Virus record (IMG/VR): IMGVR_UViG_2667527595_000027
Span: 1-3,215 of that record
From: a virus
Lineage: Duplodnaviria; Heunggongvirae; Uroviricota; Caudoviricetes
Reading direction: 5' to 3' (one strand)
DNA: 3,215 bases
The translations under genes were made by a program, and so were the position numbers. Shown in pieces: positions 1 through 3,215 of the stretch (the first letter of the stretch is position 1; every line of letters begins with the position of its first letter). The notes under the pieces were generated by a model. It saw nothing but the letters and a program-made list of their open reading frames with translations, did not search any database and was not told where the DNA came from.

Positions 1-411
1 TCAAAAATTATCAAACCCGGCAAAGTCACCGCCGCCGTGGCAGGGATGGTTTCCGGGATGACAGTCGCCAANNAAGGAGAGGTGGCGAATAAGCGGATCG
101 CGCAGATAGGACGGCAGCAGGCGCAGTGAGGCCATGGCCTCATCTACCGCGCCGCGTGCCTGTTTTCTGGCGTCTCCTGCCAGTGTGATTGTTTTGTCCT
201 GTTTTTCCTGTGCGTCCAGGCTTTTATTAATCAGGTTGCCCAGCGGCGTGGCGGAGAACGCCGCATCAGCCATTTCCTGGCGGCGCTCGTTCTCTGCCCG
301 GTAGGCATCCAGCCAGGAGGAAAGCGCGGATTCAGGAGCGGGGATCCCCGTTCCTTCACGCCCCACTGCGTGGCGCGGTTGTTGCCAGTCCCTGATGTAC
401 TCTGCCGTCAT
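1..411 (-). CDS. Hypothetical protein, 136 aa, with a C-terminal Cys/His cluster (GDCHPGNHPCHGGG); last gene of the minus-strand cassette
   Basis: ATG at 409-411 and TGA at 1-3 on the minus strand. It starts 6 nt after the stop of the upstream 121-aa gene, with only a weak SD (GAAG), consistent with coupled reinitiation. GC-rich relative to the rest of the cassette by eye. Two codons are undetermined because of NN at 72-73. No family recognised. Confidence 0.5.
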   Translation of the reverse strand: MTAEYIRDWQQPRHAVGREGTGIPAPESALSSWLDAYRAENERRQEMADAAFSATPLGNLINKSLDAQEKQDKTITLAGDARKQARGAVDEAMASLRLLPSYLRDPLIRHLSXXGDCHPGNHPCHGGGDFAGFDNF

Positions 412-417
412 AGTGAT

Positions 418-783
418 TTACTTCGTCATGCCATTCAGGGTGTCGCGGCAGACTGTAGCCAGCCGCTGAATTTCCAGCACGGTGTCTTCTGTGTCGGCAT
501 GGCGATGTGTGATGCGGATGCTGTCGGCAATCACATTGACGATTGCAGAGGATGGGCGCTGGTAAATGCCAATAACGGACGGGGTGCCACCTTCAATGCG
601 GTAAAGCCTGTAATTTCCCTCGTGGCTGTCAATCATGTAGCGACCATCAATAACAATCTTTCCGTCAGCGAGCTGCGGTACAAGCAGGGATTTCAGGTAC
701 ATGTCATAACGTTCACGCACGCGAACGGCAAGATCACGCTCTGTGTTGAGCAGGTATTCAAGAAAGTCGTTGGCGAGAATCAT
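418..783 (-). CDS. Hypothetical protein, 121 aa
   Basis: ATG at 781-783 preceded by a GAGGA Shine-Dalgarno about 8 nt upstream; TAA at 418-420. The antisense plus-strand ORF 370-948 has a GTG start and a Cys/His-rich, low-complexity-looking product, so the minus frame is preferred. No family recognised. Confidence 0.55.
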   Translation of the reverse strand: MILANDFLEYLLNTERDLAVRVRERYDMYLKSLLVPQLADGKIVIDGRYMIDSHEGNYRLYRIEGGTPSVIGIYQRPSSAIVNVIADSIRITHRHADTEDTVLEIQRLATVCRDTLNGMTK

Positions 784-924
784 TGCGGCAATCCTCTTGT
801 TACAGATGTGCGAAGGCCTCCCGCCACAAGGTGCAGGAAAGACCCGGAACAGGAATTAATGGAGTTTGTTTTGCTGCCGGATGAGCTGCTGAAGCCCGAC
901 GTGGTTTCCGGCAGTTGGAGGTGC

Positions 925-1170
925 TCATGCTCTGATTTCCCTCAGTAGCTGGTTGAACATCTGGGTTAGTGGGTTGCTACACCCAAACGGCATCGGGTTT
1001 ACCTGATAAGAAAAGCGACCGCCTGTTTTGCGCTCTTTTCTTATGACTGAACCGCTGCGCCAGAGACGGCGTAGCTCCGCATTAATGGTTGTGGTTGGTG
1101 TATTCAGTGCTGCGGCGATTTCTCCACCGCTACAACCCGGATTGGCAGCGATGTAGTCCAGAATGGTCAT
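925..1170 (-). CDS. Putative winged-helix DNA-binding protein, 81 aa (a longer 100-aa form from a TTG at 1225-1227 is possible)
   Basis: ATG at 1168-1170 with AGGAG (plus-strand 1179-1183) 8 nt upstream. The ATG overlaps the TGA of the upstream gene as ATGA. The sequence ILDYIAANPGCSGGEIAAAL...INAELRRLWRSGSVIRKERKTGGRFSY reads as helix-turn-helix followed by a basic beta-hairpin wing. Fold is inferred by eye only. Confidence 0.55.
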   Translation of the reverse strand: MTILDYIAANPGCSGGEIAAALNTPTTTINAELRRLWRSGSVIRKERKTGGRFSYQVNPMPFGCSNPLTQMFNQLLREIRA

Positions 1171-1370
1171 CTGCGTGACTCCTGTACCTGTCTGATAAGA
1201 TTTACCTGCACCACGTTGGTGGCGCAAAAGTAAGTGCCGTCAGTGAGATAGATGTGATGTGCATCCTTTTCTGAACGGTGTTTGTCGATTGTGGTAATCA
1301 GGCGTTCGTCAACTTCGTATTCACGTCCTTTGGAGGTGAAACGAACGACGGGAAAATGCTTAATTGCCAT
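1167..1370 (-). CDS. Hypothetical small protein, 67 aa (MAIKHFPVVRF...)
   Basis: ATG at 1368-1370 sits 4 nt downstream of a perfect AGGAGG (plus-strand 1375-1380 = CCTCCT). The ORF track's longer version starts at a GTG at 1419-1421 and lacks this SD. The stop TGA at 1167-1169 overlaps the next gene's ATG. Confidence 0.55.
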   Translation of the reverse strand: MAIKHFPVVRFTSKGREYEVDERLITTIDKHRSEKDAHHIYLTDGTYFCATNVVQVNLIRQVQESRR

Positions 1371-1456
1371 TACGCCTCCTTGGCGTGTGCGAATACCTCC
1401 GCGAATGCGGATTGTTTTCACATTTTCTTATTTAACCTGGGGTCTTATTTGCGCGG

Positions 1457-1570
1457 TTATTCTTCAGTGAAAAAGCGTTCAATCTTTTTTACTGAATTAA
1501 TAATTCGCATAATCCCAATGGCGCAGACCACCGAAATAATCAGAACAAGCCATGAGATAAATATACTCAT
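1457..1570 (-). CDS. Small predicted single-pass membrane peptide, 37 aa (MSIFISWLVLIISVVCAIGIMRIINSVKKIERFFTEE); absent from the ORF track
   Basis: Translated by hand from the reverse complement of 1457-1570. ATG at 1568-1570 overlaps the TGA of the upstream 80-aa gene (ATGA). A hydrophobic stretch of about 20 residues is followed by a charged C-terminal tail (KKIERFFTEE). It lies in the most AT-rich part of the cassette. Only a weak SD (GGGAAA) is present. Confidence 0.4.
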   Translation of the reverse strand: MSIFISWLVLIISVVCAIGIMRIINSVKKIERFFTEE

Positions 1571-1809
1571 GCGATATTTCCCAGCTTATACGGTTCAATA
1601 TGTTCCCCGCATTCTGCGGCATAGATCAGCTCGGAAAGTTCGTTAAGTGCATCCAGATCATCAGCGTAAAAAGCCACGTCATACAGACTTCGGATTGCTC
1701 TGGTCAATGAGTCACGGGCCGCACGTTCAGCATGAGCGCCTGATGCACTTAAGCGAAAATAAAAACGCTCAAGTGCTTTGTTAATGAGAGTTTTATATTC
1801 TTTGCCCAT
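1567..1809 (-). CDS. Hypothetical protein, 80 aa from the ATG (the track's 81-aa form starts one codon earlier at a GTG, 1810-1812)
   Basis: ATG at 1807-1809 with an AAGGG SD-like motif about 7 nt upstream, and 11 nt after the TAA of the 92-aa gene. TGA at 1567-1569. No family recognised. Confidence 0.5.
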   Translation of the reverse strand: MGKEYKTLINKALERFYFRLSASGAHAERAARDSLTRAIRSLYDVAFYADDLDALNELSELIYAAECGEHIEPYKLGNIA

Positions 1810-1820
1810 CACAACGCCCT

Positions 1821-2099
1821 TTAATCTGCTTTCTGAATTTCAGCTTCTGAATCCATACAAATAATTTCGATATAGGGGTCATCGCCATTAACCTGACGTG
1901 CCTTTTCAGCTTCGCTAATGATTTCTCGTACGGTCTGGTACGGAAGCTCCACAGTCAGGCGCGTACCGTTCAGATAAACGTAAGTAGCTGCGTTTTTTTC
2001 GGATGGAACAACTCCGTCAATGGCTGATGCGCGTAATAACAGTTCACCGCGAAAATCAATAAAACGGATAAATACACCTTGTGCATGCTCTTTGGTCAT
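1821..2099 (-). CDS. Hypothetical protein, 92 aa; first gene of the minus-strand cassette in this window
   Basis: ATG at 2097-2099 with AGGTG 4 nt upstream; TAA at 1821-1823. Its upstream promoter region runs into the ambiguous-base cluster at 2125-2135, so no promoter can be read. Confidence 0.5.
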   Translation of the reverse strand: MTKEHAQGVFIRFIDFRGELLLRASAIDGVVPSEKNAATYVYLNGTRLTVELPYQTVREIISEAEKARQVNGDDPYIEIICMDSEAEIQKAD

Positions 2100-2124
2100 A
2101 AAGCACCTGTTATAAATCAGCCTG

Positions 2125-2135
2125 NNTNATNNACN
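2125..2135. other. Cluster of ambiguous base calls (7 Ns interleaved with called bases) at the cassette/chromosome junction
   Basis: The sequence reads cctgNNtNatNNacNc. Ns mixed with called bases indicate consensus uncertainty rather than a scaffold gap. Confidence 0.9.
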
Positions 2136-2136
2136 C

Positions 2137-2361
2137 AGTTACGGCGCACCGAAAATTGGTGACATTCCGCGTGATTTCCGCGCTGTGCTGGTGCCGAGCG
2201 ACGATAAAGTCGGCCCATTCGGGGCGAAATCGATCTCGGAAATCGGTGTAAATGGTGCCGCTCCGGCGATTGCTACCGCAATTCACGATGCCTGCGGCAT
2301 CTGGTTACGCGAATGGCATTTCACACCGGAGAAAATACTCACCGCGCTGGAAAAAATATAA
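2137..2361 (+). pseudogene. xdhD: 3' remnant of a xanthine dehydrogenase / aldehyde oxidase family molybdenum-binding subunit gene (xdhD-like), about 74 codons with no start codon
   Basis: The frame ending at TAA 2359-2361 translates to ...GPFGAKSISEIGVNGAAPAIATAIHDACGIWLREWHFTPEKILTALEKI, which resembles the conserved C-terminal region of Mo-binding subunits of this family. The frame has no ATG and is open only back to a TAA at 2113-2115. It lies directly upstream of xanQ, as xdhD does in E. coli K-12 (gene order recalled, not checked). The start coordinate is approximate because of Ns at 2125-2135. Confidence 0.55.
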
Positions 2362-2370
2362 GTAATAAAT

Positions 2371-2399
2371 GGCCGCTTCGGCGGCCTGTTTCTCTGTTT
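2371..2399 (+). terminator. Intrinsic (Rho-independent) terminator after the xdhD remnant
   Basis: GGCCGC-TTCG-GCGGCC forms a perfect 6-bp GC stem with a tetraloop (2371-2386), followed by a T-rich tract TGTTTCTCTGTTT (2387-2399). Confidence 0.7.
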
Positions 2400-2513
2400 G
2401 AGCGATGACTAAATAGTGACTGCGAAAATGAGATAAGCCGTTCTCAAGGCGTCCTGCGCCCCAAATTCGTGGGAATTTATTTTACTAATTCAGATGATCA
2501 AATTTACTTTAAA

Positions 2514-2518
2514 AGGAG
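2514..2518 (+). promoter_or_regulatory. Shine-Dalgarno (AGGAG) for xanQ
   Basis: AGGAG lies 7 nt upstream of the ATG at 2526. Confidence 0.6.
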
Positions 2519-2525
2519 TGAAGGG

Positions 2526-3215
2526 ATGTCTGATATAAACCATGCAGGTTCTGACCTTATATTTGAACTGGAGGATCGCCCTCCCTTTCATCAGGCTCTC
2601 GTAGGTGCCATTACCCATCTGTTGGCAATTTTCGTTCCGATGGTAACCCCCGCGTTAATCGTGGGTGCGGCCTTACAGCTTTCCGCTGAAACAACTGCCT
2701 ATCTTGTTTCTATGGCGATGATCGCCTCTGGTATTGGTACCTGGTTACAAGTAAACCGCTACGGCATCGTCGGTTCTGGTTTACTTTCAATTCAGTCAGT
2801 CAATTTTTCATTTGTTACGGTCATGATTGCGCTGGGTAGCAGCATGAAAAGCGACGGTTTTCACGAAGAGTTAATCATGTCGTCGCTACTCGGCGTCTCC
2901 TTCGTTGGCGCATTTCTGGTTGTCGGCTCTTCTTTTATCCTGCCCTATTTACGTCGGGTTATTACGCCTACCGTCAGCGGCATTGTGGTGCTGATGATCG
3001 GCTTAAGTCTGATTAAAGTTGGCATTATTGATTTTGGCGGTGGTTTTGCAGCTAAAAGCAGCGGTACGTTCGGCAATTACGAGCATCTCGGCGTTGGCTT
3101 ATTGGTTTTGATTGTGGTGATCGGCTTTAACTGCTGCAGCAGTCCGTTGCTACGCATGGGTGGGATCGCCATTGGGCTATGTGTCGGCTATATCGCATCG
3201 TTATGCCTGGGCATG
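2526..3215 (+). CDS. xanQ: Xanthine permease XanQ (NAT/NCS2 family), N-terminal 230 aa; the CDS continues beyond the window end
   Basis: ATG at 2526 with a good SD. The translation MSDINHAGSDLIFELEDRPPFHQALVGAITHLLAIFVPMVTPALIVGAALQLS... matches what I recall of the E. coli XanQ (YgfO) N-terminus. It is strongly hydrophobic with several predicted transmembrane segments, and the frame stays open to the window end. Confidence 0.85.
   Translation, partial: MSDINHAGSDLIFELEDRPPFHQALVGAITHLLAIFVPMVTPALIVGAALQLSAETTAYLVSMAMIASGIGTWLQVNRYGIVGSGLLSIQSVNFSFVTVMIALGSSMKSDGFHEELIMSSLLGVSFVGAFLVVGSSFILPYLRRVITPTVSGIVVLMIGLSLIKVGIIDFGGGFAAKSSGTFGNYEHLGVGLLVLIVVIGFNCCSSPLLRMGGIAIGLCVGYIASLCLGM

What the first reader, a model, noticed from the sequence alone, without database searches (positions are those of the whole stretch)
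2095..2140. Foreign gene cassette abuts a start-less xdhD remnant; the junction coincides with ambiguous bases
To the left of about position 2100 all coding is on the minus strand and consists of short, tightly coupled unknown genes. To the right, the plus strand carries only the last ~74 codons of an xdhD-like gene, then its terminator and xanQ. In E. coli K-12 a full-length xdhD (roughly 2.9 kb, from memory) sits immediately upstream of xanQ, so most of xdhD has been replaced or interrupted here. A protein-coding gene is an unusual insertion target compared with tRNA/tmRNA sites. The N cluster sits exactly at the breakpoint, which could mean a mixed population (with and without insert), a repeat at the junction, or an assembly join.
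Basis: partly seen in the sequence, partly recalled or inferred. Interest (0 to 1): 0.6.

Follow-up and report, generated by a model that had tools for sequence, protein, structure and literature searches.

The report
Chimeric contig join, not an insertion
The apparent foreign cassette cutting into xdhD is an artificial join: the window stitches together pieces of three distant E. coli loci, and its ambiguous bases mark where the sequences were blended, so it is an artefact.

Summary
Minus-strand phage genes lie to the left. The last 74 codons of xdhD, its terminator and xanQ lie to the right. Six Ns sit at the breakpoint (2125-2135).

The insertion reading fails. The window has three pieces:
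- 1-71 is an interior piece of araJ.
- About 72-2133 is an interior, promoterless piece of the early operon of a P88-like (P2-family) prophage. It is cut inside the replication-endonuclease gene on one side and inside the last codons of a DUF4761 gene on the other.
- About 2124-3215 is the xdhD 3' end plus the xanQ 5' part.

In K-12 the corresponding sites lie at 0.41, 1.99 and 3.02 Mb.

All eight Ns in the window lie at the two joins. Every N falls where the two abutting parental sequences differ. The called bases between the Ns are where the parents agree. So each join is a consensus of two superimposed sequences, not one DNA molecule.

None of 5,426 complete E. coli genomes holds the arrangement. 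Neither join was found in three large contig collections. All 101 related prophage loci run straight through the right breakpoint. No integrase, att site, target duplication or terminal repeat is present.

Verdict: a chimeric contig or consensus artefact, of low interest.

The parts
1..71 (+). Interior fragment of araJ (sense strand, codons 117-140 of 394), unrelated to everything that follows
   Evidence: 100% identical over 1-71 to araJ in more than 1,000 E. coli genomes. Register to L003 checked base by base. araJ lies at 0.411 Mb in K-12.
71..73 (.). Join 1: blended overlap of the araJ and phage sequences, with Ns at 72 and 73
   Evidence: At 71 both parents have A. At 72-73 araJ has TT and the phage has GG, and the window has NN. 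From 74 onward the window follows the phage only.
74..411 (-). First 113 codons of the P2 gpA-like replication endonuclease gene (941 codons when intact), cut off at join 1
   Evidence: Corresponds to the CDS at L001 3516-6338, annotated 'replication endonuclease'. The phage piece as a whole is 99.9% identical to that prophage.
418..783 (-). Phage early-operon gene, 121 aa, hypothetical
   Evidence: ORF. Annotated CDS at L001 6345-6710. No Pfam match.
780..899 (-). Remnant annotated as an 'ash family protein' pseudogene in the reference prophage
   Evidence: L001 6707-6826, flagged incomplete.
925..1170 (-). Phage MarR-type winged-helix protein, 81 aa
   Evidence: L001 6852-7097. Pfam MarR_2 at E = 1.5e-6 and HTH_24 at E = 2.2e-6.
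1167..1370 (-). Phage hypothetical gene, 67 aa
   Evidence: L001 7094-7297. No Pfam match.
1457..1570 (-). Phage 37-aa hydrophobic peptide gene
   Evidence: ORF. L001 7384-7497. Annotated as a membrane protein in related phage records.
1567..1809 (-). Phage DUF4754 gene, 80 aa
   Evidence: L001 7494-7736. Pfam DUF4754 at E = 1.9e-52.
1821..2099 (-). Phage hypothetical gene, 92 aa; the last complete phage gene before join 2
   Evidence: ORF. L001 7748-8026.
2110..2133 (-). Stop codon and last codons of the phage DUF4761 gene; the remaining roughly 110 codons, the early promoter, the switch genes and the integrase are all missing
   Evidence: The DUF4761 CDS is at L001 8037-8387, which starts at window position 2110. 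The phage sequence is compatible with the window only up to 2133.
2124..2135 (.). Join 2 (the finding): blended overlap of the phage and xdhD sequences, with Ns at 2125, 2126, 2128, 2131, 2132 and 2135
   Evidence: Phage GTTTAATAAAAC against xdhD GCGTGATTTACG. The window has N at six of the seven differing positions (at 2134 the xdhD base C is called). It has the shared base at 2124, 2127, 2129, 2130 and 2133. The K-12 xdhD allele gives the same result.
2136..2361 (+). 3' end of xdhD (last 74 complete codons plus stop)
   Evidence: Identical to E. coli STEC299 xdhD apart from the Ns.
2371..2400 (+). xdhD intrinsic terminator (GGCCGC-TTCG-GCGGCC hairpin, then a T-rich run)
2526..3215 (+). 5' part of xanQ (230 codons), in its normal position downstream of xdhD
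   Evidence: Pfam Xan_ur_permease at E = 7.9e-45.

Best explanation
The window is a chimeric sequence made when the sequence was built, through a computational misjoin or consensus merge. It is not a structure in a genome. Three stretches that lie more than a megabase apart in E. coli were strung together: the araJ interior, the interior of a P88-like prophage early operon, and the xdhD 3' end with xanQ. At each join the ends of the two source sequences were laid over each other for a few bases (3 at join 1, about 11-12 at join 2). The consensus caller wrote a base where the two agreed and an ambiguity (now N) where they disagreed.

Shown: the three origins, the position of the breakpoints inside genes, the blend pattern, and the absence of the arrangement elsewhere.

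Inferred: the blend arose in assembly, merging or consensus software, or from reads of the intact parental loci overhanging a false join. All three parental loci are therefore intact in the source DNA.
For: 1. Three origins. Bases 1-71 are 100% araJ. Bases 74-2124 are 99.9% identical to a P88-like prophage that sits next to yecA in FORC_069. Bases 2133-3215 are identical to STEC299 xdhD-xanQ apart from the Ns. The corresponding K-12 sites are at 0.411, 1.991 and 3.021 Mb.
2. Blend pattern. All 8 Ns lie at the two joins and only at positions where the two parents differ. The bases called between them are the shared ones.
3. The phage piece is interior. Its left end is at codon 113 of the replication endonuclease gene. 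Its right end is inside the last codons of the DUF4761 gene. The integrase and prophage end lie about 3.3 kb further on.
4. The arrangement is absent elsewhere. None of 5,426 complete E. coli genomes has 80% or more of the window in one place. Both join patterns, with N as a wildcard, are absent from genome contigs and metagenome contigs, and the join 2 pattern is also absent from viral contigs. As a control, the uninterrupted phage sequence across the breakpoint occurs in 101 viral contigs. All 101 run straight through the right breakpoint, and none holds araJ or xdhD/xanQ DNA.
5. No mobile-element signature. There is no target-site duplication or terminal inverted repeat at the fragment ends, and no promoter-like site near the join.
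6. The flanks are not contiguous. This rules out the 'mobile element inside a contig' pattern that QUAST-LG separates from true misassemblies. The window instead meets the QUAST definition of misassembly breakpoints (PMC6022658).
Against: - Raw reads are not available, so the absence of junction-spanning reads is inferred rather than shown.
- The software or step that made the join is not identified. Mainstream assemblers do not normally merge on 3-12 base imperfect overlaps.
- At 2134 the parents differ (A against C) yet a plain C is called, so the blend is not perfectly regular.
- The best-matching complete genome for the xdhD piece (STEC299) is not among the 30 best matches listed for the phage piece. 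A single source strain carrying all three intact parents has therefore not been demonstrated.
Confidence: 0.72

Rival explanations
1. The chimera is physical but made in the test tube. Sheared fragments (a piece ending in araJ, a 2.06-kb phage fragment, and an xdhD-xanQ fragment) were ligated or template-switched together during library construction or amplification and read as one molecule. The consensus at the joins was then blurred by reads from the intact parental loci. This is still an artefact, not a genome feature.
For: The evidence is the same as for the computational join. A complete 2.06-kb middle piece with blunt, homology-free ends inside genes is what end-to-end ligation of sheared fragments gives. 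Microhomology at the joins is negligible: 1 base at join 1 and 5 scattered bases of 10 at join 2.
Against: A true chimeric molecule has one definite sequence at each join. The N pattern needs an added step in which parental reads are aligned over the join. Nothing in the sequence distinguishes this from a purely computational join.
Confidence: 0.2
2. The rearrangement is real but present in part of a culture or community. Illegitimate end-joining after DNA breaks captured a promoterless 2.06-kb prophage fragment between a broken araJ and a broken xdhD. The Ns reflect the mixture of rearranged and normal cells.
For: The N pattern shows that both the joined and the uninterrupted parental sequences contributed to the consensus. 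A mixture would produce that.
Against: - In a mixture the ambiguity should run along a whole flank, not stop after 3 and 11 bases.
- Joining araJ to xdhD needs a 2.6-Mb deletion or inversion. A deletion of that size would remove a large part of the chromosome.
- Two independent homology-free joins within 2.1 kb are required.
- The arrangement is absent from 5,426 genomes and from three contig collections.
Confidence: 0.05
3. A prophage or genomic island integrated site-specifically into xdhD, leaving a start-less remnant, with the rest of the element lying to the left of the window.
For: Phage genes do abut a truncated xdhD. Phages that integrate into protein-coding genes exist (general knowledge: e14 in icd, Stx phages in wrbA and yehV).
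Against: - The breakpoint lies inside the phage DUF4761 gene, 3.3 kb from the integrase end of this phage family.
- The phage DNA stops after 2.06 kb at a second join, to araJ.
- There are no att-like repeats.
- The minus-strand operon is cut off from its promoter.
- All 101 related prophage loci continue through the breakpoint, and none borders xdhD.
- None of 5,426 genomes has the arrangement.
Confidence: 0.01

Closest known systems
Misassembled (chimeric) contig with relocation or inversion breakpoints, as defined for QUAST (Gurevich et al. 2013, restated in PMC6022658)
   Same: The flanking sequences at each breakpoint align to places megabases apart in every reference genome. The breakpoints do not coincide with mobile-element ends. 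The outer flanks are not contiguous in the reference, so it is not the 'transposable element inside a contig' case.
   Different: Typical de Bruijn misjoins occur at shared repeats. Here the parents share no repeat, only a 3-12 base imperfect overlap that was blended into Ns. That points to a merging or consensus step, or to a library chimera, rather than a repeat-induced misjoin.
Integrated P2-family prophage (P88-like, genus Xuanwuvirus), for example the prophage next to yecA in E. coli FORC_069
   Same: Bases 74-2124 are 99.9% identical to its early operon, with the same gene order and overlapping start and stop codons: gpA-like endonuclease, 121-aa gene, ash remnant, MarR-type gene, 67-aa gene, 37-aa peptide, DUF4754 gene, 92-aa gene, DUF4761 tail.
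   Different: Only 2.06 kb of a phage of roughly 31-40 kb (record lengths) is present. It is cut inside genes at both ends and lacks the integrase, att site, switch region, promoter and all late genes.
Prophages that integrate into protein-coding genes (e14 in icd, Stx phages in wrbA and yehV; general knowledge)
   Same: There is a superficial picture of phage DNA next to a truncated host gene.
   Different: Those insertions place the phage att site at the junction, usually with the integrase gene close by. They duplicate a core sequence at both ends and often regenerate the host gene's end. None of this holds here.

Membership tests
Site-specifically integrated prophage or genomic island | The junction with host DNA coincides with the element's attachment site at the end of the element | tested here: not met
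   Join 2 lies inside the DUF4761 gene. Of 101 related loci, 52 end about 3.3 kb further on, at the integrase end. Join 1 lies inside the replication endonuclease gene.
Site-specifically integrated prophage or genomic island | An integrase or recombinase gene is present at or near a boundary | tested here: not met
   No such gene is in the window. In the reference prophage the integrase lies 2.3 kb beyond the breakpoint.
Site-specifically integrated prophage or genomic island | Direct repeats (att core or target-site duplication) flank the inserted DNA | tested here: not met
   No repeat pairs 71-73 with 2124-2135; only chance-level repeats lie elsewhere.
Site-specifically integrated prophage or genomic island | The two host flanks are contiguous in genomes that lack the element | tested here: not met
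   The flanks are araJ and xdhD, which lie 2.6 Mb apart in K-12.
Site-specifically integrated prophage or genomic island | The same arrangement recurs in related genomes | tested here: not met
   None of 5,426 complete E. coli genomes has it. There are 0 matches to the join patterns in the contig collections scanned (both joins in two, join 2 in a third). None of 101 related prophage loci holds xdhD or araJ DNA.
Chimeric contig (misassembly in the QUAST sense) | Sequences flanking a breakpoint align to distant positions or opposite strands of the reference | tested here: met
   The three pieces map to separate places in every genome that has them (3 places in FORC_069). The K-12 positions are 0.411, 1.991 and 3.021 Mb. 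The definition is in PMC6022658.
Chimeric contig (misassembly in the QUAST sense) | It is not explained as a mobile element inside an otherwise collinear contig | tested here: met
   The outer flanks are not collinear (araJ against xdhD). The middle piece is not a complete mobile element.
Chimeric contig (misassembly in the QUAST sense) | The consensus at the join shows superposition of both parental sequences | tested here: met
   Ns occur only where the parents differ, and shared bases are called between them, at both joins.
Chimeric contig (misassembly in the QUAST sense) | No reads or read pairs genuinely span the join, and the parental loci are intact in the reads | not testable with these tools
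   Raw reads and the source record are not available. The source contig was not found by exact-protein look-up or by pattern scans.
Illegitimate (microhomology-mediated) end-joining with captured filler DNA | A single, unambiguous junction sequence, usually with a few bases of microhomology | tested here: not met
   The junction sequences are ambiguous blends. Microhomology is 1 base at join 1 and 5 scattered bases of 10 at join 2.

The most novel reading that the evidence does not exclude
The joins are real in a minority of cells. A double-strand-break repair event captured a promoterless 2.06-kb fragment of a resident P88-like prophage as filler DNA between broken araJ and xdhD, as part of a megabase-scale rearrangement. 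The Ns reflect the mixture with normal cells.
Probability: 0.04. Interest if true: 0.3.

Novelty: not a real feature. Interest (0 to 1): 0.04.

Why it matters
The result matters as quality control. Taken at face value, the window would add a false prophage integration site in xdhD, a false truncated xdhD pseudogene and a false fusion ORF (1-411, gpA N-terminus fused to antisense araJ) to annotation or mobile-element catalogues.

The diagnostic is simple and reusable. Ambiguous bases that occur only where two candidate parental sequences differ, interleaved with the bases they share, mark a blended false join.

If the join were real it would be a modest curiosity, namely filler-DNA capture in a large rearrangement, and not a new kind of system.

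Tried and rejected
- I looked for the arrangement in complete E. coli genomes, phage records, GTDB species genomes, JGI metagenome contigs and IMG/VR. It was found nowhere, while the positive control for the uninterrupted phage sequence gave 101 contigs.
- I tried to find the source contig through the 58-aa ORF that a gene caller would make from the orphan xdhD tail. That returned only two unrelated metagenome scaffolds. In one of them (L005) an N gap ends at the equivalent of window position 2137. This looked suggestive at first. It is explained by selection: that ORF is only called when xdhD is disrupted within about 105 bases upstream of 2185.
- I looked for target duplications, terminal inverted repeats or an att-like core at the fragment ends. 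There are none.
- I looked for a promoter that could drive the minus-strand genes from the join. There is none.
- I looked for structured RNAs in the window. There are none.
- I tested whether the 18-nt inverted repeat at 2045-2062 and 3025-3042 could have caused the join. It lies 62 bases from the join, its longest exact run is 11 bases, and a repeat this good occurs in 7 of 200 shuffles. I rejected it as chance.
- I rejected a repeat at the junction, because the parents share no repeat there.
- I rejected a simple with-and-without-insert mixture, because the ambiguity is confined to 3 and 11 bases.

Full report
**Observation.** The window has eight ambiguous bases: 72, 73, 2125, 2126, 2128, 2131, 2132 and 2135. 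Left of the second cluster lies a run of short, overlapping minus-strand ORFs. Right of it, the plus strand holds the last 74 complete codons of xdhD (2137-2358, stop at 2359-2361). A GC hairpin with a T-run follows at 2371-2400, and xanQ starts at 2526. In K-12, xdhD is 2,871 bp and ends 164 bp before xanQ.
- The breakpoint is at 2124-2135, not about 2100.
- The genes are identifiable phage genes.

**What the three pieces are.**
- A megablast search of the whole window against 5,426 complete E. coli genomes gave no genome with 80% or more of the window in one place. In the listed genomes that carry the phage piece, such as FORC_069, the matches fall in three or more separate places.
- Bases 74-2124 are 99.7-99.9% identical to a prophage found in many strains, and 88-95% identical to P88-like phages (Xuanwuvirus and relatives). 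P88 is a P2-like coliphage (PMC5285337).
- In FORC_069 that prophage lies next to yecA. The window stretch corresponds to its early operon, in this order: the first 113 codons of the replication endonuclease, a 121-aa gene, an ash-family remnant, a MarR-type winged-helix gene, a 67-aa gene, a 37-aa peptide, a DUF4754 gene, a 92-aa gene, and then only the stop and last few codons of a DUF4761 gene.
- Bases 2133-3215 are identical to the xdhD-xanQ region of strain STEC299 apart from the Ns.
- Bases 1-71 are 100% identical to an interior stretch of araJ, codons 117-140.
- In K-12, araJ is at 0.411 Mb, the yecA/leuZ region is at 1.991 Mb and xdhD is at 3.021 Mb.

**The joins are blends.** I put the window in register with both parents at each join.
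- *Join 1.* Both parents have A at 71. At 72-73 araJ continues TT and the phage has GG, and the window has NN. From 74 the window follows the phage.
- *Join 2.* Across 2124-2135 the phage reads GTTTAATAAAAC, xdhD reads GCGTGATTTACG and the window reads GNNTNATNNACN. Every N sits on a position where the parents differ. Every position where they agree (2124, 2127, 2129, 2130, 2133) carries the shared base. The one exception is 2134 (A against C), where the xdhD base is called.
- The K-12 xdhD allele gives the same picture. The phage sequence used is shared exactly by 101 IMG/VR contigs.
- Placing 6 Ns at random among the 11 positions would hit only differing positions with p = 0.015. On top of that, all four shared bases are correct, the same rule holds at join 1, and no N occurs anywhere else in 3,215 bases.

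A DNA molecule has one base per position. A consensus that records both continuations for a few bases means that sequences of the uninterrupted parents were laid over each other there.

**Why it is not an insertion.**
- Both phage breakpoints are inside genes.
- The operon's promoter, the switch genes and the integrase lie beyond the right breakpoint. No promoter-like site exists near the join.
- All 101 related prophage loci fetched from IMG/VR run uninterrupted through the right breakpoint. Fifty-one of them also run through the left breakpoint.
- Fifty-two of those loci end at L001 coordinates 11,250-11,400, which is the integrase end, about 3.3 kb beyond the window's breakpoint.
- None of the 101 contains araJ or xdhD/xanQ DNA.
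- No direct or inverted repeat links the two ends of the fragment.
- The outer flanks, araJ and xdhD, are not neighbours in any genome examined.
- Both join patterns, with N as a wildcard, are absent from the GTDB species genomes and the JGI metagenome contigs. The join 2 pattern is also absent from IMG/VR.

**Explanation.** The most likely account (about 0.7) is a computational misjoin or consensus merge. A test-tube chimera from ligation or template switching, later blurred by parental reads, is the main alternative (about 0.2). It is equally an artefact. In QUAST's terms the window contains two misassembly breakpoints and does not fit the 'transposable element inside a contig' exception, because its outer flanks are not collinear (PMC6022658). 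A real rearrangement in a subpopulation is not strictly excluded (about 0.05). It would need two homology-free joins 2 kb apart, a 2.6-Mb deletion or inversion, and ambiguity that unaccountably stops after 3 and 11 bases. Site-specific integration into xdhD is refuted.

**Limits.**
- There are no raw reads and the source record was not identified.
- The tool or step that produced the blend is not identified.
- The irregular call at 2134 is unexplained.
- The best-matching complete genome for the xdhD piece is not among the 30 best matches listed for the phage piece. The pieces may come from a strain not in the collection, or from more than one strain.

**Verdict.** This is not a real biological feature, and its interest is low.

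Noticed in passing
Bases 1-71 are an interior piece of araJ (plus-strand sense), and Ns at 72-73 mark the blend with the phage replication-endonuclease gene.
   Followed up: yes
window 1-411 (minus strand): The 136-aa ORF listed here is a false fusion. It consists of 113 codons of the phage gpA-like endonuclease, then two X codons, then 21 codons of antisense araJ. It ends at a chance stop formed by window bases 1-3. A gene caller would report it as a complete small protein.
   Followed up: yes
window 2045-2062 and 3025-3042: An 18-nt inverted repeat with 17 of 18 bases complementary lies between the phage 92-aa gene and xanQ. A repeat this good occurs in 7 of 200 composition-matched shuffles. 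It is 62 bases from the join, so it is probably chance and not the cause of the join.
   Followed up: yes
L001 2161-3439 (FORC_069 prophage, downstream of the replication endonuclease): The reference P88-like prophage carries genes annotated as ParM plasmid segregation protein and a plasmid partitioning/stability protein directly after the replication gene. A plasmid-type segregation module in an integrated P2-family prophage may be worth a look.
   Followed up: no
window 780-899 (L001 6707-6826): An 'ash family protein' remnant, annotated as incomplete, sits between the 121-aa gene and the MarR-type gene of the phage operon. It may be a decayed gene inside an otherwise intact operon.
   Followed up: no
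L005 341-405; L004 whole: Two ENA metagenome scaffolds carry the same orphan 58-aa xdhD-tail ORF. L005 has a 65-N scaffold gap that ends at the equivalent of window position 2137. In L004, xanQ is split into two ORFs. The near-coincidence with the window's breakpoint is explained by how the look-up selects contigs, since xdhD must be disrupted within about 105 bases upstream of 2185.
   Followed up: partly
window 74-2124 against window 2133-3215: The best complete-genome matches differ by piece. The xdhD-xanQ piece is identical to STEC299 (marmot isolate) and 99.6% identical to the other listed strains, such as NC101 and NGF1. The phage piece is closest to FORC_069, 55989 and ST131 prophages, and STEC299 is not among the 30 best matches listed. 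The pieces may come from an unsampled strain or from more than one strain.
   Followed up: partly
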